Source of the DNA: a virus
Direction: 5' to 3' (one strand)
Length of the DNA stretch: 64,000 nt
IMG/VR virus record: IMGVR_UViG_3300045988_163643
Span: 64,001 to 128,000 of that record
Positions 54,251 through 62,837 of this stretch are shown piece by piece. Numbering within the stretch: position 1 is the first letter of the stretch; each line of letters starts with the position of its first letter. The notes under the pieces were generated by a model. That model did not search any database. It saw only the letters and a program-made list of their open reading frames with translations, and had not been told where the DNA came from. Both the position numbers and the translations under genes were made by a program.

Positions 54251-54733
54251 ATGGCAAAAGCAAAAAAAGAAATAAAGAAAATAATATGTACTACTTGTGG
54301 AAGAGAATTGCCTGAAAAAGATTTTGGTAAATCTTACTCATTTAGAGACAAACTAAATGGAAGGTTACCAATTTGCAAAGACTGTTGTGCTAGTTTATAT
54401 GATAAGCTAATGGTAGATTATCAAGATGAAATGAAAGCATTATATAGATTTTGTATGATATTAGATTTATATTTTTCTAAGGATACAGTTATGGGATTAA
54501 TAAGTAAGAATAGAAATTCCGAAAGTAATCTTGGATATTTATATGTATTAAAATATAACTTAGTACAATATAAAAATAAAACATTCCAAGATACAACGGC
54601 ATTTGTAAATATATTTGGTATGACTGAAGAAGAAATGGAAGAAGCATTATATTTGAATACTGAAAAAACAAAAGAAGAAATAGAAAGAAAAACTAAAAAA
54701 ATAGTTACACCAGAAGTAATCAAACGTTGGGGT
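54251..54733 (+). CDS. terS: putative terminase small subunit, exon 1
   Basis: Lies directly upstream of and overlaps terL after splicing. N-terminal CTTCG...CKDCC zinc ribbon. The ORF ends a few codons into intron sequence. Confidence 0.45.
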
Positions 54734-55072
54734 AATTGCCCCCTATGTTTATAAAAAACATAGCAAACCTTTTGAATTGCTGGAAACCCCTAAAGCTTAA
54801 CACACTACAACGTGGCTAGAAATGGCGAACGTGAATGTTACGAAAGTAGAAAAAAGTTGTTAAGATGATATATGGTTAAATCCTAAGTATCTACAATAAT
54901 GGGCAATCAGCAACTAAGATTCTAAGTGATGATTTGTCATATGAATAAAGTCCAACGACTAGATAGGAATATCGTACACTCAAGCGAGTGGAAGTGGAAG
55001 GTATCCTATAAATATAGGATAATGATATAGTCTAATCTCATATGAAAGTATGAGCAGTCGAAAGACGGTATG
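54734..55072 (+). mobile_element. group I-like intron A (ORF-less, ~339 nt)
   Basis: P1 hairpin GGGGU|AAUU-GCCCC with U.G at the 5' splice site. Core-like ACTACAACG and GATATAGTCT. Homologous to intron D. The 3' end ..GGTATG restores the frame. Confidence 0.65.
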
Positions 55073-55618
55073 TATGTAGCGAATACATATGAATATAAAT
55101 GTTCTGATTTAGAGTTAGACGATTATATTTTTCTCGAAGATAGATATAATCAGATGCTTTTAGCCTATGATGATAAGAATCCTTCATCCCTGTGGTCATA
55201 TCAAGAAATATGTATGAATTATTTACTCCTTAGAAAAGATAGGGGAAATGTTCAACTTCAAAAAAGTATCCAAGAAATTAATAGTAAATTACAAGCAGAT
55301 TGTAAAATGAAGTTATCGCAAATAGATAATGATGATGATGATAATGCTTGTTTTGGAAAGTTTATAGATAAAATAGAATTATATGAACCATGTAATAAAA
55401 AATTACCATTCTTTGAAGATATAGATGGAATAAGACAATACTTAAAAAGATGGTTCGTTTTGCCTTTTGCGAAACAGTGGAAACTAGCTAAAAATGATGT
55501 ATTAGAAGGAGAGGAAGGAATAGAAGATTATGAGGATGTAGATAAAATATATAATGAACAAAATAAGAATAAAGCTGAAGTAGAGAATGAAGTAGGTGAG
55601 GAAGACAATGACAAGTAG
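55073..55618 (+). CDS. terS: putative terminase small subunit, exon 2
   Basis: Frame is open from 55046. Junction gives ..VIKRWG|YVANTYEYKCSDLELDDY. The exact 3' splice site is uncertain by up to 9 nt. Confidence 0.45.
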   Translation, partial: YVANTYEYKCSDLELDDYIFLEDRYNQMLLAYDDKNPSSLWSYQEICMNYLLLRKDRGNVQLQKSIQEINSKLQADCKMKLSQIDNDDDDNACFGKFIDKIELYEPCNKKLPFFEDIDGIRQYLKRWFVLPFAKQWKLAKNDVLEGEEGIEDYEDVDKIYNEQNKNKAEVENEVGEEDNDK

Positions 55619-56158
55619 TGTAAAAGAAAATATTGAAGAAGAAAAAATACTTTCTGACGAAGTCATGAAAAGTCCTCATAAAAAAAGAAGAAATTTATCC
55701 CAAAGAAAAAAAGATAGATTAAATGAAGGTATGAAAATATGGACTGCATTTTATCGTTTGAATATCCATAGATTCGCACTGGATTTTTTGGGACTTAATT
55801 TATATCCGTTCCAAATTATATTGCTTTATATGATGAATATAATGTATAGCACTTGCCTAATATGTGCCAGAGGGTTATCGAAATCATATATGACAGCAAT
55901 ATTTCTTTGTTGTAAAGCAATATTATATCCAAATAGTTTAATTGTAGTTTCTTGTTCAACTAAGGAACAAGCCAGAAATCTTATAAAGGAGAAGATAGCT
56001 AAAGAACTATGTTCTCAGTCGAAAATGTTAAATAGAGAAATTGCTAAAGTAGTCACCGGTACTAATGAAACAGTGGTAATCTTCAATAACGGTAGTACTA
56101 TTCAAGCAGTAAATGCTTCTCAAAATACAAGAGGTCTTCGTTGCCATGTACTCGTGGT
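55608..56158 (+). CDS. terL: terminase large subunit, exon 1
   Basis: YPFQIILLYMM...ICARGLSKSYMTAIF (Walker A-like) ... NTRGLRCHVLVV. Start at ATG 55608 (GGTGAGGAAG SD). Confidence 0.75.
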
Positions 56159-56481
56159 AGTTATCTGCCTAGATATACATATATATAAAAGTATATCCGT
56201 AATTGGGTAAAATCGGTAAAAGCTAAGTTCTTATAGAATATGCCAATACCGAGTTAACTGATAAAATTAAAAAGTTATCAGCAATGTAGAGCATAGTAGG
56301 TGAACCTTGCGAACTATTATTAGATAGTTCTTTTTAATTGCAAGAATATAATCTTACCAAGAGTACCCAACACCTTATTGTATAAGGTGAAAATGTATGC
56401 CAAGCTTGTAGGAAACTATAAGAGGTGGATGTGTGAATTGACACACTATTAATAGATAAAAAGCTCCACGATAAAACTTTG
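56159..56481 (+). mobile_element. group I-like intron B (ORF-less, ~323 nt)
   Basis: P1 GGU|AG-UUAU-CUGCC with U.G at the splice site. Ends ..CTTTG. Splicing joins HVLVV|DEYRMI, restoring Walker B DE. Homologous to intron C. Confidence 0.65.
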
Positions 56482-56645
56482 AGATGAGTACAGAATGATA
56501 CAAGGAGGTTTTGATACTTTAAACTCAGTATTAAGACCATTCTTAAACTGTGTTAGAATACCAAAATTTAAAAATAGAGATGATGGAAAATACGCAGATT
56601 ATCCAACTGAGGAAAACCAAGAAATTTACTTAAGTAGTGCGTGGT
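56482..56645 (+). CDS. terL: terminase large subunit, exon 2
   Basis: DEYRMIQGGFDTLNSVLRPFLNCVRIPKFKNRDDGKYADYPTEENQEIYLSSAW. Not reported as an ORF because it is only 54 codons. Confidence 0.7.
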
Positions 56646-56751
56646 AAATTCGTGCCACTTTATATAGCGATATATAAAACAAATTGGGCAAAATCGGTCA
56701 TAGTAAATCGTGAGATTAAGCTGATAAGAGAGACTAAGTATTGTTTAAAAT

Positions 56752-56780
56752 TTTACTTTTAATAAAAAATATAGTATAAT
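56752..56780 (+). promoter_or_regulatory. phage-family promoter TTTACT-17-TATAAT inside intron C
   Basis: TTTACTTTTAATAAAAAATATAGTATAAT, upstream of the endonuclease ORF. Confidence 0.55.
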
Positions 56781-56805
56781 ATAAGTAATGGGGGTGAATA
56801 TTAAA

Positions 56806-57537
56806 ATGAATAAAATAACTACAGAAATAGCATTAAAACGAATTAATGATAAAATAAAAGAAACTAATACAACATTATATGTTGTTAATTTTGAATATGT
56901 AAAAAAGAAAAGTATAATTTATATGAAATGTAGAGTATGTGGAAAAGAAGTTGAAAGAGATTATTGGAGATTTATTCATGCAGGTGGAAAATGTGAATGC
57001 CAATATAAATATAGAAGATGGACTGAAGAAAGATGCATAGAATTAATAAAAAATAATGATTATAATGATGAATATGAATTTGTAAATTTCAATACAGGAG
57101 CTAATATTACAATAAAACATAACATATGTAATCATGAATTTACTAGAGCTTCTTGGAATATAAAAGACAATGGTTTAAAATGTCCATCATGTTATCCACT
57201 TGATAGTGCAGGAGAATTGAATATTGAGAATTATTTAAAATCAAAAAATATTTTATATCAAAAACAGAAAAGATTTAAAGGATGTAAAAATAAAAAGACA
57301 TTACCATTTGATTTTTATTTACCACAATATAATTGTTGTATAGAATTCGATGGCGAACAACATTTTAAACCTGTCGAACACTTAGGTGGAGAAAAACACT
57401 ATAATAATACAGTCATAAATGATGGAATAAAAAATGAATTTTGTAGAAAAAATAATATACTTTTATTAAGAGTACCTTTTTATAAAATAAATGATGTAAA
57501 TGATATTATTGAAAATTTTTTAAACAATATAAGTTAA
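56806..57537 (+). CDS. intron-encoded endonuclease, Vsr/PD-(D/E)xK-like C-terminal domain with zinc-ribbon repeats
   Basis: LPFDFYLPQYNCCIEFDGEQHFKP...NNILLLRVPFYK. CRVCGKEV and CPSCY modules. Start at ATG 56806 (GGGGGTG SD). Confidence 0.55.
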   Translation: MNKITTEIALKRINDKIKETNTTLYVVNFEYVKKKSIIYMKCRVCGKEVERDYWRFIHAGGKCECQYKYRRWTEERCIELIKNNDYNDEYEFVNFNTGANITIKHNICNHEFTRASWNIKDNGLKCPSCYPLDSAGELNIENYLKSKNILYQKQKRFKGCKNKKTLPFDFYLPQYNCCIEFDGEQHFKPVEHLGGEKHYNNTVINDGIKNEFCRKNNILLLRVPFYKINDVNDIIENFLNNIS

Positions 57538-57777
57538 TACCGAGGTAAGATAGAAAATTAAAAAGTTCTATCCACCGTAACGCATAGAGATTGAACCTTT
57601 GTAAGAACTATTATATAATAGTTCTTTTTTGATTACAAAGAATAAAATATCTCCAAGAGTGCCCACTTCTATATTGTATAGAAGAAAATATATGCTGGAC
57701 TGGGTATGAATCGACATACCATAATGCGAGGAAACTCCCAGAACTAGAGGATAAAAAGCCTTTAGGGTAACAAAACG

Positions 57778-58862
57778 TTGAGAATCATTGGAGTTACGAC
57801 CTTTATTCTTCTCATGTTAAGAAAATGTTAGCAGGTGATGATTATTTTGTATGTAATCTACCTTATCAATTATCTGCCTATCATGGAATATTAACTAAAA
57901 AAAGAATACAAGATATTTTATCAGATGAGAATATGTCGGAAATATCATTTACAATGGAATTTGAAGCATTATTTTATTCTGATAAAGATACTAGTTATTT
58001 TAAATCAAGTGATATATTACCTTGTAGAACATTGGAATATGCATGGTATCCTCCAACACCAGAGGAATATTATAGAAATAAAAATAAAGAGAAAAAGAGT
58101 TATTATTTAAAGAGATTAAATGATAAAGAACTTAGAGTAATCAGTTGTGATATAGCTTTAATGAACAGTAAAAATGGGCATGACAATGATAATGCCGTAT
58201 TTACTTTTATAAGAAGTATTCCAAAGAATCAAAATTATATATCACAAGTTTTATGGCAACAGACTCACGAAGGATATAAAGCTAAGCAATTAGCATTAAA
58301 TATAAAAAGATTATATTTTGATACTCAAAGTGATTATATAGTACTAGATACTGCCGGTAGTGGTATATCTGTATTAGATGAGTTAGGTGAATACACAACT
58401 GATGTAGAAAGAGGAATAGTTTATCCTCCATTAAAAGCAATGAATGATGAAAAATATGAAGAACGTTGTGGTTATTCAGAAGCACAAAAATCTATATTTT
58501 GTGTTAATGGTAGTACAAAGTTTAACCATGAAATTGCAGTAACTCTTAAAACAGCATTCCAAAATAAAACCATTAGATTATTAAAAACACAATTTGAAGC
58601 AGATGATTTTATAGAGGGATATAATAAAATGTCTCCTAAAGAACAAGCTGATAAATTGATGCCTTATGTTCAAACTTCTTTAATGCAAGATGAAATAACT
58701 CAATTGGAATATGAAGTAAAAGATTCTTATATTAAACTTTATGAAACAACAGGTAAACGTAAAGATAGATATTCAAGTTTAGCTTATGGTAATTATTTTA
58801 TAAGAGAAAGAGAAAAAAAATTAAAGAAAAAGAAAAAAGGTGGATTAGCTAATCTATGGTAG
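57778..58862 (+). CDS. terL: terminase large subunit, exon 3 (nuclease half)
   Basis: Junction ..SSAW|FENHWSYDLYSSHVKKM. Frame is open only from 57771. Continues to ISCDIALMNS...YIVLDTAGSG. Confidence 0.7.
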
Positions 58863-58899: not shown

Positions 58900-60360
58900 G
58901 TGAGTGAAGAAAAAAAGCAAAAGAAGTTATTTGCCGAAACTTCTGTAGCTAACAATGCACAAAAATATACAACTAAACCAGTTAAATATAGTGCTAGTGA
59001 AATAATGGGATTCTTAGAAGACCCACAATCAAATGCACTTAACTTACAAAAAGCTAGTATTTGGTTGTATTATAATAGTGGTATCTATAATAGATTAATT
59101 AATAATTATGCTGGTATGAATATCTATGATTTATATTTGTATCCAACTACAATTAGTAAATTTTCTAAATCAAAAAGAAAAATAACTCCTGAAAAATTAT
59201 ATAAAGATTATTTAGATATAAGTAATTTATTAGAAAGAATTAGTTGGAAGTCTAATTATCGTAATATAGGAATTAATCTTATGATACAAGGAGAAGTTTT
59301 CTTATATGATGTATCTGATAATCAAGGTACTATATTAAAAGAGATACCAACAGAAATATGTAAAATATGCAAGGTTATAAATGATAATTTATATAAATAT
59401 GCAATTAATGTTAATAAATTAGGTACAGTTGATTATTATTCAATGATGCCTATAGGATTACAAAGATTATATGACCAACATAAGGCAGGTACATTACTAC
59501 CTGAACAATATTTAGGAACTGCTGGTTCTGGTTATGTAATAGTAGATGACCCTGAAGCAATATGTTTAAGTTTAAATAATATGACTTCAACAAAATCTGT
59601 TCCACCTTTATCTTATTTATTTCCTTCATTATTAAGATTAATGGAAGAAGAAGAAAATGAAGTTGTGGAAAATAAAGCTAATAACTTAAAAATGATACAT
59701 ATGCAATATGATGTAGATGATGAAGGTGAGTCAAAAATAGCAGAAGCAGACCTTATAAAAATGCATAATTCAGCTAAAGCTAATTTGCCAGTAGGAGTTT
59801 GTGTGAATACCAATCCTTTAAAAGTACAAGCGTTAACATTACAAAGAACTGGTAATGTAAATGCAAGTAATAGACAAACATTAACTGAATTAGTTTATAA
59901 TAATTCAGGTGTTAATAGTGAAATATTCAATGGTAATCAAAGTAATAACCAAGCTATTCTTACTGGAGTAACAGCAGATGAAATATATTGTGATACTTTA
60001 AATAATATATTTGAAAACTATACTAAATATAGAATAAAACAATTAAAAAGAAATCCTTTATGGATGGTTAGATTTGTAAGAAATACTCAATACAATAAAC
60101 AAATTTTAATAACTGAATCAATGCAAGGTTGTACCGTAGGATTATCAAGAATGAAATTTTTAGCTTGTAATCATTATGCACCATTAGAAGCATTATCATT
60201 ACTTGAATTTGAAACTGAAAATGGTATAGATGAATTTTTTGTACCTCTAGCTACTTCTTATACTCAAAGTGGAGATGAGGAAGATTTAGGTAGACCTAAA
60301 AATTCAGATAACCCTGATAATCAAAAAGATGTTGGTGAGAATCCTGATAGCACTAAATAA
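58900..60360 (+). CDS. portal protein (putative)
   Basis: 486 aa, immediately after terL, GTG start after AAAGGGA. Called from size and position. Confidence 0.55.
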   Translation: MSEEKKQKKLFAETSVANNAQKYTTKPVKYSASEIMGFLEDPQSNALNLQKASIWLYYNSGIYNRLINNYAGMNIYDLYLYPTTISKFSKSKRKITPEKLYKDYLDISNLLERISWKSNYRNIGINLMIQGEVFLYDVSDNQGTILKEIPTEICKICKVINDNLYKYAINVNKLGTVDYYSMMPIGLQRLYDQHKAGTLLPEQYLGTAGSGYVIVDDPEAICLSLNNMTSTKSVPPLSYLFPSLLRLMEEEENEVVENKANNLKMIHMQYDVDDEGESKIAEADLIKMHNSAKANLPVGVCVNTNPLKVQALTLQRTGNVNASNRQTLTELVYNNSGVNSEIFNGNQSNNQAILTGVTADEIYCDTLNNIFENYTKYRIKQLKRNPLWMVRFVRNTQYNKQILITESMQGCTVGLSRMKFLACNHYAPLEALSLLEFETENGIDEFFVPLATSYTQSGDEEDLGRPKNSDNPDNQKDVGENPDSTK

Positions 60361-60641: not shown

Positions 60642-60660
60642 TTTGAAAGGAGGTGTAATT

Positions 60661-61217
60661 ATGGATAACAAGCTTAGACTACCTATTAAAAGATTTGAAA
60701 GTACAGATGAAGTTTTAGCTAATACAAATTTTAAAAAAGTTAAAATATACATTATGCATACAGGTGAAAATCTTAATCATTCTGTATTTTCATTAGATAG
60801 TATAAATGATTCAATAGATACACTTGCAAACATTCCAATATTGGCATTTGTTGAAAAAACTGATGGACAAGATAATAAAGATTTTGCAGGACATGAAACT
60901 GATTTAGATATATTCACAGATAAAGATGGAACAATTAAAGTAAGAGAATATTATAAAGAAGTACCTATTGGAGTAATACCTGAAAGTAATGAATATTTCT
61001 TTGAAGAAAAAGATGGAGAAACATACTTAGGGTGTTATGGTTACATATGGAAATGTTATTCTAATGATGCTTATGACATATTAGAAGAAGACCAAGAAAA
61101 AGAAGTTTCTATGGAAATTTATATAAATAATTGTTCTTATGATAGAAAACAAAGATGTAATATTAATAAATTTGAATTTCTTGGAGTAACAGTTTTAGGT
61201 GCAAAATATCCAGGAGT
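60661..61217 (+). CDS. head scaffold/maturation-protease-like protein, exon 1
   Basis: Start at ATG 60661 (GAAAGGAGGTG SD). Lies between the portal and capsid genes. The ORF runs 6 codons into the intron before a stop. Confidence 0.45.
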
Positions 61218-61612
61218 AATTAGCTCCCTATATTAAGTGATTAGTATAGAAAATTCTCTGAATTGCTTGTAATCCCTAAAGTCAACTAAACTACAACGTG
61301 ATTGGAAACGATGAGCGTGAACGTGGCGAAAGCAGAAAAAATTAGTTGAATGGTATATGGTTAAACCCTAAGTACCATTGCAATGGGTGTCTAGCAGGTA
61401 AGATTCTAAGTTACTATATAAGTAATATGAATAAACTTCAACGACTATTGAAATAATTGTAAGAACCTTATTACAATTAAAGTAAAGTACTCTTAAGTAA
61501 GAGGAAGTAGAGAATGTCTTATTTAGTTAATGTAAGATAATGATATAGTCTCAACGTTTAGCGAAAGCTAAAGAAGTTCATAAGAGAACTGCGTAAGAAT
61601 AACGAACTTATG
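61218..61612 (+). mobile_element. group I-like intron D (ORF-less, ~395 nt), paralog of intron A
   Basis: P1 GGAGU|AAUUA-GCUCC, covarying with intron A. Shared blocks CCCTAAAG, ACTACAACGTG, ATGGTATATGGTTAAA, TAAGATTCTAAGT and TAATGATATAGTCT. Ends ..CTTATG. Confidence 0.6.
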
Positions 61613-62837
61613 TGAAGATATTGCTATGGGGGAAGATTGTATACTTAGTATGAATTTTTCCAAAGAAGATGGTGAATATAAAGAATATTTATCTTCTGTT
61701 GAAAAATTAAATAAATTATTAAAATGTCAAAGAGAGGAGGGATTAAGTGTGGATGTAAATAAAGAAACTTCTACTGTTGAAAACAAAGAAGAATTTGCTG
61801 AAGAAAATAAAGACGAAGAAGTTTGTCCTACTTGTGGAAAAAATCCTTGCGAATGCAAAAAAGAAAATCATGCAGTTAATGATGATGAAGAAGATAAAGC
61901 AGATGACAAAGTAGATGATGATGAAGAAGATAAAGACAAGGATAAAGAAGATGAATCTTGCAAAAAGAAAAATCATGCAACTGAAGATAAAGCAGATGAT
62001 GATAAAAAAGAAGATAAAGAAGATGATGAATCTGACGATGACAAAGATAAAGAAGAAGATGATGATGATAAGTCAGATGAAGATGACAAAGATAAAGAAG
62101 ATGAATCTTGCAAAAAGAAAAATCATACAGTAGAAGATGACAAAGCAGACTTTGGACTTTCTTTAAATAATACATTTAAAGCCATAAGAAAGCAATTAGA
62201 ATCTTACACTTACGAATATGTGAGCTATTGGGGTGACACTTATACTTGGAGAAAATATTATGTAGTAGAATTAATCCCTGAAGATTCAGTTGTTGTTATA
62301 GAAGATGAAGAAGAAAATGAATTCTATGGAATAACTTATTCTATAAATAATGATGATGTTGCTTTAGATTTGGATAATAAAGTATTATATATTCAAGAAT
62401 GGAGAGCCAAAGAAACCAGTTCTGCTAGATTTGAAAATACTGATAAAAAAGAAAAATATACTACTAAAGATGAAGTATATCAAGCAGTTGGAAAAGAATT
62501 AAAAGAACTTAGACAATTTAAAGCTGATATAGAAGCTCAAGAAGAAAAAGCTCAATTCGATGAAAAAGTTAATACTATTTTATCACAATTTGAATTTAGT
62601 GAAGAAGAAACTTCTGATTTAGTAGAAAAAGTTTATAACAAATCAATTAATTTAGATATGTTTGAAACTTGCTTATTTGCTTTAGAAGCTAAAAAGAATA
62701 GAGCTGAAAAAGAAAAATTTGCTAAAATAGAAAAAGAAAACAGTTTAAATATAGTTGATTCTAAAAAAGAAGAACCAGCAAAACCAAAATCAAGATTTGA
62801 TTATCTATTAAAAGAATTTGGAAACAAAAATAAATAA
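61613..62837 (+). CDS. head scaffold-like protein, exon 2 (acidic repeats plus coiled-coil C-terminus)
   Basis: Junction ..LGAKYPGV|EDIAMGEDC. Three C(E/K)KK(E/K)NH(A/T) repeats in a D/E/K-rich region. Scaffold-like helical C-terminal part. Confidence 0.45.

What the first reader, a model, noticed from the sequence alone, without database searches (positions are those of the whole stretch)
56159..57777. terL split into three exons; a 54-codon middle exon carries Walker B and the conserved SSAW block
Joining 56158|56482 gives RGLRCHVLVV-DEYRMI, restoring the ATPase Walker B hhhhDE motif. Joining 56645|57778 gives EIYLSSAW-FENHWSYDLY. The middle exon (56482-56645) is invisible in the ORF track. 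Both introns follow the same CGTGGT 5' exon hexamer and share long sequence blocks. Only intron C carries an ORF, so intron B looks like an ORF-less derivative or an ectopic copy.
Basis: partly seen in the sequence, partly recalled or inferred. Interest (0 to 1): 0.65.

Follow-up and report, generated by a model that had tools for sequence, protein, structure and literature searches.

The report
Phage terminase gene with two introns
The large-terminase (DNA-packaging) gene of this gut phage is interrupted by two related self-splicing group I introns, one carrying its own homing-endonuclease gene; this is real, but the same arrangement has already been described in other phages.

Summary
Joining 55608-56158, 56482-56645 and 57778-58862 gives one 599-aa reading frame. 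It aligns without a gap at either junction to uninterrupted terminases of SPbeta-like and phiCD211-like phages, and to a 74%-identical intron-less gene in a Bacilli MAG.

Close relatives supply natural controls. One lacks intron C exactly (exon 2 abuts exon 3). Two lack intron B. One carries intron B with a 249-aa endonuclease gene in the loop where the window's copy has five bases.

Both inserts follow a U that pairs with a G in an internal guide, and both end in G. They belong to a ribozyme family found in about 100 viral contigs. Its P3/P7 pseudoknot, P4, P6, P7.1 and P8 are backed by covariation: 95.7% of cells pair, and 29 of 38 pairs show compensatory changes. Rfam's group I model scores none of them.

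Intron C carries a zinc-ribbon plus Vsr-like endonuclease gene with its own promoter-like site and ribosome-binding site.

terL genes split by two or three group I introns are already published, so this is a new member of a known kind. The surrounding lineage is more unusual, with up to six introns per terL.

The parts
55608..56158 (+). terL exon 1 (aa 1-184 plus two bases of a Val codon). Holds Walker A (CARGLSKS) and the hydrophobic strand of Walker B (VLVV). The start is ATG 55608, preceded by GGTGAGGA.
56159..56481 (+). Intron B: an ORF-less group I intron of 323 nt. Helices:
- P1: 56156-56160 with 56165-56169 (GGUAG/CUGCC; U56158 pairs with G56167).
- P10: 56161-56166 with 56482-56487.
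- P2: 56172-78 with 56191-97.
- P3: 56203-08 with 56365-70.
- P4: 56213-17 with 56248-52.
- P5: 56222-30 with 56236-43.
- P6: 56258-64 with 56275-81.
- P7: 56291-95 with 56396-400.
- P7.1: 56296-300 with 56353-57.
- P8: 56371-78 with 56382-89.
- P9: 56405-11 with 56416-22 (GAAA loop).
The last base is G56481.
56482..56645 (+). terL exon 2 (164 nt; 54 whole codons, D185-W238). Holds the Walker B acidic pair DE and the YLSSAW block.
   Evidence: Against L123 it shows 8 synonymous and 1 non-synonymous codon differences.
56646..57777 (+). Intron C: a group I intron of 1132 nt with an ORF in loop L5. Helices:
- P1: 56641-46 with 56653-58 (GUGGUA/UGCCAC; U56645 pairs with G56654).
- P2: 56660-65 with 56672-77.
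- P3: 56685-89 with 57661-65.
- P4: 56694-98 with 57539-43.
- P5: 56732-39 with 57529-35.
- P6: 57549-55 with 57566-72.
- P7: 57582-86 with 57691-95.
- P7.1: 57587-91 with 57649-53.
- P8: 57666-73 with 57677-84.
- P9: 57700-04 with 57737-41.
The last base is G57777.
   Evidence: It is exactly absent in L123.
56752..56796 (+). Promoter-like site (TTTACT, 17 nt, TATAAT; 56752-56780) plus a GGGGGTG ribosome-binding site (56790-56796), in front of the intron ORF.
   Evidence: The composite pattern occurs once in the 64-kb window. It precedes all 15 intron ORFs that the search recovered in the window and five relatives.
56806..57537 (+). Homing-endonuclease gene of intron C. It is 243 aa from ATG 56806; the longest ORF starts at 56788 (249 aa), but that ATG overlaps the ribosome-binding site. 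It has two zinc-ribbon repeat modules followed by a C-terminal Vsr-like (PD-(D/E)XK-type) nuclease domain. Its stop codon overlaps the 3' strand of P5.
57778..58862 (+). terL exon 3 (last two bases of the F239 codon through aa 599, then the stop): the rest of the ATPase domain and the nuclease domain.

Best explanation
terL is transcribed as one pre-mRNA. Two related group I ribozymes remove themselves from it, and this restores a single 599-aa large terminase.

How each intron is set up:
- Each uses an internal guide sequence to pair with the last bases of its upstream exon. This places a U-G wobble at the 5' splice site.
- Each ends in the G that is needed for the second splicing step.
- For intron B, the same guide also pairs with the first six bases of exon 2 (P10).

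The two ribozymes share one family architecture. It has:
- P1 to P9 with a P3/P7 pseudoknot.
- An extra P7.1 arm between P7 and P3'.
- A CCUAAG..UAUGG-type tetraloop receptor in P5, and a GAAA loop on P9. Intron B carries the variant receptor GCUAAG..UAUGC.

Intron C is the mobile form. Loop L5 holds an endonuclease gene (zinc ribbons plus a Vsr-like nuclease) with its own promoter-like site and ribosome-binding site. The enzyme presumably cuts intron-less terL alleles during co-infection, and repair then copies the intron in.

Intron B is the ORF-less form of an intron that, in a sister genome, carries a different (AP2-type) endonuclease gene in the same loop.

Shown here: exon continuity, exact presence/absence alleles, covariation-supported structure, and purifying selection on the exons. 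Inferred: self-splicing activity, endonuclease activity and target, and the direction of ORF gain or loss.
For: Exon continuity:
- One continuous frame.
- Single-piece alignments to 115 phage terminases.
- No gaps at the junctions.
- An intron-less gene at 74% identity, with one 1803-nt HSP across both junctions.

Natural presence/absence alleles in relatives that are 90-96% identical:
- L123 has intron B but not C.
- L126 and L128 lack B.
- L129 has B with an endonuclease gene.
- Intron C has one possible boundary and it is U|...G. Intron B has three equivalent boundaries, one of which is U|...G.

The P1 guide changes with the exon across family members: GGUAG/CUGCC, GUGGUA/UGCCAC, UGCAUUA/UAGUGCA, GGGGU/GCUCC.

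Family structure on 34 sequences:
- 95.7% of cells pair, against 37-47% when the partners are slid.
- 29 of 38 pairs show changes on both sides.
- 0 of 500 shuffles reach the observed values.

Further points:
- RNAalifold independently recovers P1, P3, P4, P5, P6, P7.1 and P8.
- Intron B folds with z = -5.07.
- The endonuclease matches PHROG 559, 9084 and 7140. Its homologs carry DUF723, zinc-ribbon and DUF2726 domains, and JGI names three of the 120 listed homologs Vsr endonuclease.
- Exons are under purifying selection: 46 synonymous against 15 non-synonymous codon differences; 8 against 1 in exon 2.
Against: - Rfam's Intron_gpI model gives no hit to B or C even at E <= 10, and none to any other member of this family.
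- No RNA data were available, so splicing itself is not shown.
- P7 is nearly invariant within this phage lineage. Its covariation comes only from distant family members.
- I found no convincing P10 for intron C.
- The nuclease fold assignment is weak: Foldseek gives 1vsr at E 0.1, and the Pfam hits are below threshold.
- TerL itself falls just under Pfam's cut-off (21.2 against 22 bits). PHROG 2 (E 1e-21) and tblastn are clear.
Confidence: 0.9

Rival explanations
1. Intron B is a recent ectopic copy of intron C. It would have moved by reverse splicing into a second CGTGGT site in the same gene and then lost, or never had, the ORF.
For: - Both introns follow the same 5'-exon hexamer CGTGGT.
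- Both belong to one ribozyme family.
- In the sister genomes, closely related cores (84-95% identical in the central block) sit at at least five different terL sites. The family has therefore moved between sites at some time.
Against: - B and C are only 63% identical overall, and 44% in P9.
- Only GGU of the hexamer is used in intron B's P1, against GUGGU in C's.
- The intron-less alleles already read CGTGGT (site B, L126) and CCTGGT (site C, L123), so the hexamer is exon sequence.
- The ORF-bearing form of B carries an AP2-type endonuclease, not C's Vsr-like one.
Confidence: 0.12
2. terL is a split gene. Endonuclease-bearing selfish DNA has cut it into separately translated fragments that assemble without RNA splicing.
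For: - Gene callers annotate only fragments of 200 and 345 aa.
- PHROGs contain families that match just the N-terminal or just the C-terminal piece (phrog_15503 and phrog_26582).
Against: - Exon 2 has no ribosome-binding site, and its only ATG lies after the Walker B D-E pair.
- Exon 3 has no start at its 5' end. Its first ATG (57825) would drop 16 conserved residues.
- The inserts have conserved, covarying RNA structure and U/G boundaries.
- The ORF-less intron B would have no reason to persist.
Confidence: 0.03
3. terL here is a decaying pseudogene in a defective prophage, and the inserts are simply insertions.
For: No direct expression data.
Against: - The frame is preserved across both joins.
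- All motifs are intact.
- Synonymous changes outnumber non-synonymous ones 46 to 15 against a relative.
- The same arrangement occurs in several 170-206 kb viral contigs from independent samples.
Confidence: 0.02

Closest known systems
Group I introns in terL of Bastillevirinae (Bacillus) phages and of Jug (jumbo gut) phages
   Same: The large-terminase gene is split into two or three (or more) pieces by group I introns. Many of those introns carry a homing-endonuclease gene in a loop. Splicing was verified experimentally in those systems (PMC11878797; PMC12880540, read).
   Different: The phage lineage differs: this one has an SPbeta/phiCD211-type terminase and comes from gut contigs of 170-206 kb. 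The ribozyme family here is not detected by Rfam RF00028. The insertion sites lie in Walker B and in the SSAW block.
T4 td / Twort orf142-type (IA2) phage introns
   Same: - Self-splicing group I introns in essential phage genes.
- The endonuclease ORF sits in a peripheral loop with its own expression signals.
- There is an extra arm between P7 and P3'.
- The other intron type in this window (54733-55102 and 61221-61620) resembles them, and the first of these is found by Rfam.
   Different: Introns B and C have different core sequences: P7 is GCAUA/UAUGC, not ACUA/UAGU. Their P4-P6 half looks, from my memory of the Azoarcus tRNA-Ile intron sequence, more like subgroup IC3 (CCUAAG..UAUGG receptor with an L9 GAAA loop). 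I did not test the subgroup against GISSD-type models.
I-Bth0305I / Vsr-like ('EDxHD') intron endonucleases
   Same: An intron-encoded nuclease in a phage gene. The C-terminal domain has the pattern D-F...E-F-D-G-x-x-H, with invariant F174 D175 F176 I185 E186 G189 H192. The best relevant fold match is E. coli Vsr (1vsr, prob 0.99).
   Different: No significant sequence match to any PDB chain. The Foldseek E-value is only 0.1. The N-terminal half consists of zinc-ribbon repeats (DUF4379/DUF723 in homologs). Membership is not established.

Membership tests
Group I self-splicing intron | The 5' exon ends in U, and that U pairs with G of an internal guide sequence (P1) | tested here: met
   Intron B: GGU|AG pairs with CUGCC. 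Intron C: GUGGU|A pairs with UGCCAC. The guide changes with the exon in four family members at other sites.
Group I self-splicing intron | The last intron nucleotide is G (omega-G) | tested here: met
   G56481 and G57777. The empty alleles allow one boundary for C and three for B, and the U|...G choice is among them.
Group I self-splicing intron | Core helices P3-P8 with the P3/P7 pseudoknot, supported by covariation | tested here: met
   On 34 sequences, 95.7% of cells pair, 29 of 38 pairs show compensatory changes, slid controls reach 37-47%, and 0 of 500 shuffles match. P7 shows GC-AU and AU-GC exchanges.
Group I self-splicing intron | Match to the curated covariance model (Rfam RF00028) | tested here: not met
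   No hit at gathering score or at E <= 10 for B or C. None for family members in 19 other loci, although neighbouring introns of the other type score 65-93 bits.
Group I self-splicing intron | Exact absence from homologous genes, leaving an intact frame | tested here: met
   L003 is intron-less. L123 lacks C. L126 and L128 lack B.
Group I self-splicing intron | Guanosine-dependent self-splicing | not testable with these tools
   Needs an in vitro transcript or RNA-seq.
Group I subgroup IA | Extra helices (P7.1/P7.2 or P7.1/P7.1a) between P7 and P3' | tested here: met
   The helix at columns 172-176 with 235-239 pairs in 98.8% of cells, and 4 of its 5 pairs covary. I did not test the subgroup with GISSD-type models, and the P4-P6 half looks IC3-like from memory.
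Intron-encoded homing endonuclease | ORF in a peripheral loop of the ribozyme, absent from ORF-less copies of the same intron | tested here: met
   The ORF lies between the P5 strands (56739 and 57529). ORF-less and ORF-bearing forms exist for the B site (window vs L129) and for the C' site (L124-126 vs L128).
Intron-encoded homing endonuclease | Recognisable nuclease domain | tested here: inconclusive
   PHROG 559 at E 4e-50 and PHROG 9084 at E 5e-30. Pfam DUF559 and DUF2726 only at E 0.15-0.19. Model pLDDT 93.7, with Foldseek 1vsr at prob 0.99 but E 0.1.
Intron-encoded homing endonuclease | Cleaves the intron-less allele at or near the insertion site | not testable with these tools
   The candidate target is the L123 allele, AGTGCCTGGT|TTGAGAATC.
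Large terminase (TerL) | N-terminal ATPase with Walker A, Walker B and a coupling motif, plus a C-terminal nuclease, homologous to known TerL | tested here: met
   - tblastn: 38-42% identity over 91-94% of the length to annotated terminases.
- PHROG 2 at E 1e-21.
- Motifs are aligned.
- Pfam Terminase_6N scores 21.2 bits, just below the 22-bit cut-off.

The most novel reading that the evidence does not exclude
Introns B and C may represent a distinct, abundant subclass of group I ribozyme in gut phages that the standard Rfam model does not see. Its features are a P4-P6 half with an 11-nt receptor and an L9 GAAA loop, joined to an IA-like P7.1 arm.

In this phage lineage the subclass would have colonised one gene repeatedly:
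- Together with a Twort-like intron type, it occupies at least nine sites within the first 240 codons of terL, with up to six introns in one gene.
- The same loop accepts interchangeable endonuclease cassettes of different families, all driven by one conserved promoter/ribosome-binding-site module.
- Sequence is exchanged between copies.

The window, with two introns, would be the least-invaded member of an intron swarm.
Probability: 0.35. Interest if true: 0.5.

Novelty: new member of a known kind. Interest (0 to 1): 0.3.

Why it matters
Practical consequences:
- Gene callers see this terminase only as 200-aa and 345-aa fragments of unknown function. Phage classification and packaging-type prediction that rely on TerL will therefore fail on this lineage unless the introns are removed.
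- Rfam gives no hit, so routine screens undercount phage introns. The family alignment made here (A3, A4) could seed a model.

Biological points:
- The insertion sites fall in the most conserved ATPase motifs, namely Walker B and the SSAW block. In relatives there is also a site in Walker A. This is the expected signature of homing endonucleases that target sequences the host cannot change.
- The set of sister genomes offers matched alleles (empty, ORF-less, ORF-bearing) for studying the intron and endonuclease life cycle.

None of this changes current understanding of group I introns.

Tried and rejected
Searches that found nothing useful:
- Megablast of the locus against 50,697 phage records: no match.
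- Rfam at gathering score and at E <= 10: nothing for B or C.
- Pfam on the intron ORF at default threshold: nothing.
- NCBIfam: only a chance zinc-finger hit.
- PDB sequence search: nothing.
- Foldseek against PDB: no match at E <= 0.001, so the Vsr-like fold is only suggested.
- The promoter scan by itself is uninformative in this AT-rich DNA (27 sites found, 23.6 expected). Only the composite promoter + ribosome-binding site + start pattern is specific.

Readings considered and rejected:
- Group II intron: 323 nt is far too short, and there are no domain V/VI features.
- Intein: the inserts are full of stop codons in the terL frame.
- Frameshifting or readthrough: the inserts are 323 and 1132 nt long.

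Things that did not work or were not attempted:
- My automatic split-finder was unreliable for the other (Twort-like) intron type, because it fixed the insert length. I therefore do not rely on its output for those introns.
- I did not build a covariance model. A full-length model (about 330 positions) would exceed the calibration limit, and nhmmer already separated hits cleanly.

Full report
1. THE OBSERVATION

- terL starts at ATG 55608, preceded by GGTGAGGA, and runs to 56158 (...CTCGTGGT).
- A 323-nt insert follows (56159-56481).
- The frame resumes at 56482 for 164 nt, up to 56645 (...GCGTGGT).
- A 1132-nt insert follows (56646-57777).
- The frame resumes at 57778 and runs to the stop at 58862.

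Joining the three pieces gives one open frame of 599 aa. The middle piece is one base, then 54 whole codons (D185-W238), then one base. Both inserts follow CGTGGT.

One nuance: the hydrophobic strand of Walker B (VLVV) is in exon 1. Only the acidic D-E pair is in exon 2.

2. THE JOINED PRODUCT IS A CONTIGUOUS LARGE TERMINASE

- tblastn of the joined product against 50,697 phage records finds 149 records. In 115 of them a single uninterrupted stretch covers at least 80% of the query. The best are phiCD211-like Clostridioides phages (42% identity) and SPbeta-like Bacillus phages (38%; yonF, 'terminase family protein').
- A three-way alignment shows no gap at either junction: LVV|DEYRM against LIVDEFRL/M, and YLSSAW|FENHW against YLSSAWFRMH and YLSSCWYKVHW.
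- PHROG 2 (terminase large subunit) matches at E 1e-21. Two 'unknown function' PHROGs match just the N-terminal and just the C-terminal fragments.
- Pfam Terminase_6N is marginally sub-threshold at 21.2 against 22 bits.
- A Bacilli MAG (L003) encodes a 74%-identical terminase in one uninterrupted ORF. The joined window CDS gives a single 1803-nt blastn HSP across both junctions.

3. NATURAL PRESENCE/ABSENCE ALLELES

IMG/VR and ENA hold sister genomes (contigs of 173-206 kb, several from Hadza gut samples) whose exons are 90-99% identical to the window.
- L123 has intron B (325 nt, 90% identical) but no intron C. Its sequence reads AGTGCCTGGT|TTGAGAATC straight through.
- L126 and L128 have no intron B (…CTCGTGGTTGATGAG…; VLVVDEYRMIQG is contiguous).
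- Comparing occupied and empty alleles leaves one possible boundary for C, and it is U|...G. For B it leaves three equivalent boundaries, one of which is U|...G.
- L129 carries intron B at the same site, with a 249-aa ORF inserted between GCUAAGU and AUAUGCC. That is exactly the P5 loop, which is five bases long in the window.

So the window's intron B is the ORF-less form of an intron that also exists with an endonuclease gene.

Between the window and L123, exon 2 + exon 3 differ at 46 synonymous and 15 non-synonymous codons (8 and 1 in exon 2). The exons therefore evolve as coding sequence in the joined frame.

4. WHAT THE INSERTS ARE

Rfam's group I model finds a different intron at 54724-55054 (85 bits). 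It finds nothing in 56100-57850, even at E <= 10. The case for B and C therefore rests on structure.

(a) Splice-site pairing. The last exon base is U, and it pairs with G in a guide:
- Intron B: GGU|AG with CUGCC (56156-60 with 56165-69).
- Intron C: GUGGU|A with UGCCAC (56641-46 with 56653-58).
- In relatives, family members at other sites have guides that match their own exons: UGCAU|UA with UAGUGCA, and GGGGU with GCUCC.
- For B, the guide also pairs with the first six bases of exon 2 (UUAUCU with AGAUGA), which is a P10.

(b) Both inserts end in G.

(c) Family size. A 17-mer from the P3-J3/4-P4 segment hit at least 119 viral contigs. An nhmmer profile of six lineage copies found about 100 of those loci, many at E below 1e-20 over nearly the full length. 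In the window it found only B and C.

(d) Covariation. On 34 non-redundant cores I imposed the group I topology: P3, P4, P6/P6a, P7 crossing P3 as a pseudoknot, P7.1 and P8. The result:
- 95.7% of cells pair, against 37-47% for slid partners.
- 29 of 38 pairs show changes on both sides.
- No shuffle of 500 reaches the observed values.

RNAalifold on the six lineage copies independently recovered P1, P3, P4, P5, P6, P7.1 and P8. Intron B alone folds with z = -5.07.

The family has an arm between P7 and P3', which is the IA hallmark. It also has a CCUAAG..UAUGG-type receptor in P5 with a GAAA loop on P9. From my memory of the Azoarcus intron, that resembles IC3. I did not test subgroup models, so the subgroup is open.

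No family member in 19 further loci reaches Rfam's threshold, although neighbouring introns of the other type do.

5. THE ORF IN INTRON C

The ORF lies between the two P5 strands, and its stop codon overlaps the 3' strand.
- It matches PHROG 559 ('HNH endonuclease', E 4e-50), PHROG 9084 ('homing endonuclease') and PHROG 7140 ('intron encoded nuclease').
- Its homologs carry DUF723, zinc-ribbon DUF4379, CapR-homology and DUF2726 domains. JGI names three of the 120 listed homologs very-short-patch-repair endonuclease.
- Invariant residues include F174 D175 F176 I185 E186 G189 H192.
- The AlphaFold model is confident (pLDDT 93.7): two three-stranded zinc-ribbon modules, then an alpha/beta domain.
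- Foldseek finds no strong PDB match. E. coli Vsr (1vsr) is the best relevant one (prob 0.99, TM 0.52 on the target, E 0.1), alongside other restriction-endonuclease-like folds.

I therefore call it a zinc-ribbon plus Vsr-like nuclease. The 'HNH' label of the PHROG is probably wrong.

A composite signal precedes the ORF: TT[TG]AC[TA], exactly 17 nt, TATAAT, 8-10 nt, GGAGGTG-like, then the start codon. It occurs once in the whole window. A pattern search recovered the same signal in front of 15 intron ORFs in the window and five relatives, whatever the nuclease family or ribozyme type. It points to ATG 56806 (243 aa) as the real start.

6. ORIGIN OF INTRON B

B and C are 63% identical overall: 76% in the central block and 44% in P9.

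The ORF-bearing form of B encodes an AP2-type protein, like the one in the relatives' Walker A-site intron. It is not C's Vsr-like enzyme.

The empty alleles already carry CGTGGT or CCTGGT. The shared hexamer is therefore exon sequence, of which only GGU (B) or GUGGU (C) pairs with the guide.

A recent C-to-B transposition is thus unlikely. Older movement of the family between sites clearly happened: cores that are 84-95% identical in the central block sit at five or more terL sites in the sister genomes, with mosaic similarity that suggests recombination between copies.

7. CONTEXT

The window has at least four introns in about 7 kb: 54733-55102, B, C, and 61221-61620.

The relatives are far more invaded. 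terL is cut at nine verified sites within codons 1-240:
- codon 50/51
- codon 89/90, inside Walker A
- codon 123
- codon 167
- codon 176
- codon 184 (= intron B)
- codon 192
- a site 3 nt upstream of C
- the C site itself

Introns seen per terL are six in L124, five in L126, at least four in the L128 genome, three in L123 and three in L129.

8. COMPARISON WITH WHAT IS KNOWN

terL genes split by two or three group I introns, with loop-encoded endonucleases, have been reported and experimentally confirmed in Bastillevirinae (PMC11878797) and in Jug gut phages (PMC12880540). The first paper also notes that current models miss phage intron variants.

The finding is therefore correct and well supported, but it is a new member of a known kind. 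The intron density of the lineage, and the Rfam-invisible family, are the only parts a specialist might want to follow up.

Noticed in passing
window 54733-55102: A Twort/td-like group I intron (Rfam RF00028, 85 bits over 54724-55054) splits the gene upstream of terL (ORFs 54251-54754 and 55070-55618). L126 has the uninterrupted gene (…KRWGSDLELDDY…). If the product is colinear with L126, the boundaries can only be G|U…G|U or U|A…U|U. A U before the 5' splice site and a terminal G cannot both hold.
   Followed up: partly
window 61221-61620: A second intron of the same Twort-like type (nhmmer E 1.5e-61), directly after ORF 60643-61236. Rfam missed it at gathering score. Relatives have it at the same place (L124 11239-11636, L126 11238-11635).
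   Followed up: partly
L124 1-6477; L126 2180-6477; L128 6160-9896; L123 1875-5114; L129 1198-3990: In sister genomes terL is interrupted at nine different sites within its first 240 codons, by two ribozyme families. Up to six introns sit in one gene (L124), including one inside Walker A. A tenth site near codon 433 is suggested at a contig end (L127 2-205).
   Followed up: partly
window 56752-56806, and upstream of 14 intron ORFs in L123, L124, L126, L128, L129: A pattern search recovered 15 intron ORFs, all preceded by TT[TG]AC[TA], 17 nt, TATAAT, 8-10 nt, GGAGGTG, start. The ORFs include Vsr-like, AP2-type and LAGLIDADG proteins, in either ribozyme type. The composite occurs only once in the 64-kb window.
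   Followed up: yes
window 59797/59798 and 55453: These are empty sites in the window. All relatives carry a 1310-nt intron with an endonuclease gene in the portal gene at 59797/8. Several carry a 412-1437-nt insert at 55453 in the gene upstream of terL.
   Followed up: partly
L096 1719-3117: An unrelated viral contig has four group I introns within 1.4 kb: three found by Rfam, plus one of the B/C family that Rfam misses.
   Followed up: no
L128 9780-9896 and L127 1-100 (IMGVR_UViG_3300045988_159628): The two ends of this 'complete' contig overlap inside nearly identical intron cores from different terL sites. Repeated intron cores probably break or mis-circularise assemblies of this lineage.
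   Followed up: no
window 56639-56658: The only 'terminator-like' hits in the locus are the P1 hairpin of intron C (GUGGUA-loop-UGCCAC followed by a U-rich run).
   Followed up: yes
phage records CP069348.1 13361-13941, MT774392.1 77040-77231, MZ417338.1 69382-69570, OM634653.1 6131-6209: Members of the B/C ribozyme family lie in unannotated stretches of isolated or curated phage genomes: a Clostridioides phage, a crAss-like phage, Mammaliicoccus phages and a Bacillus phage.
   Followed up: no
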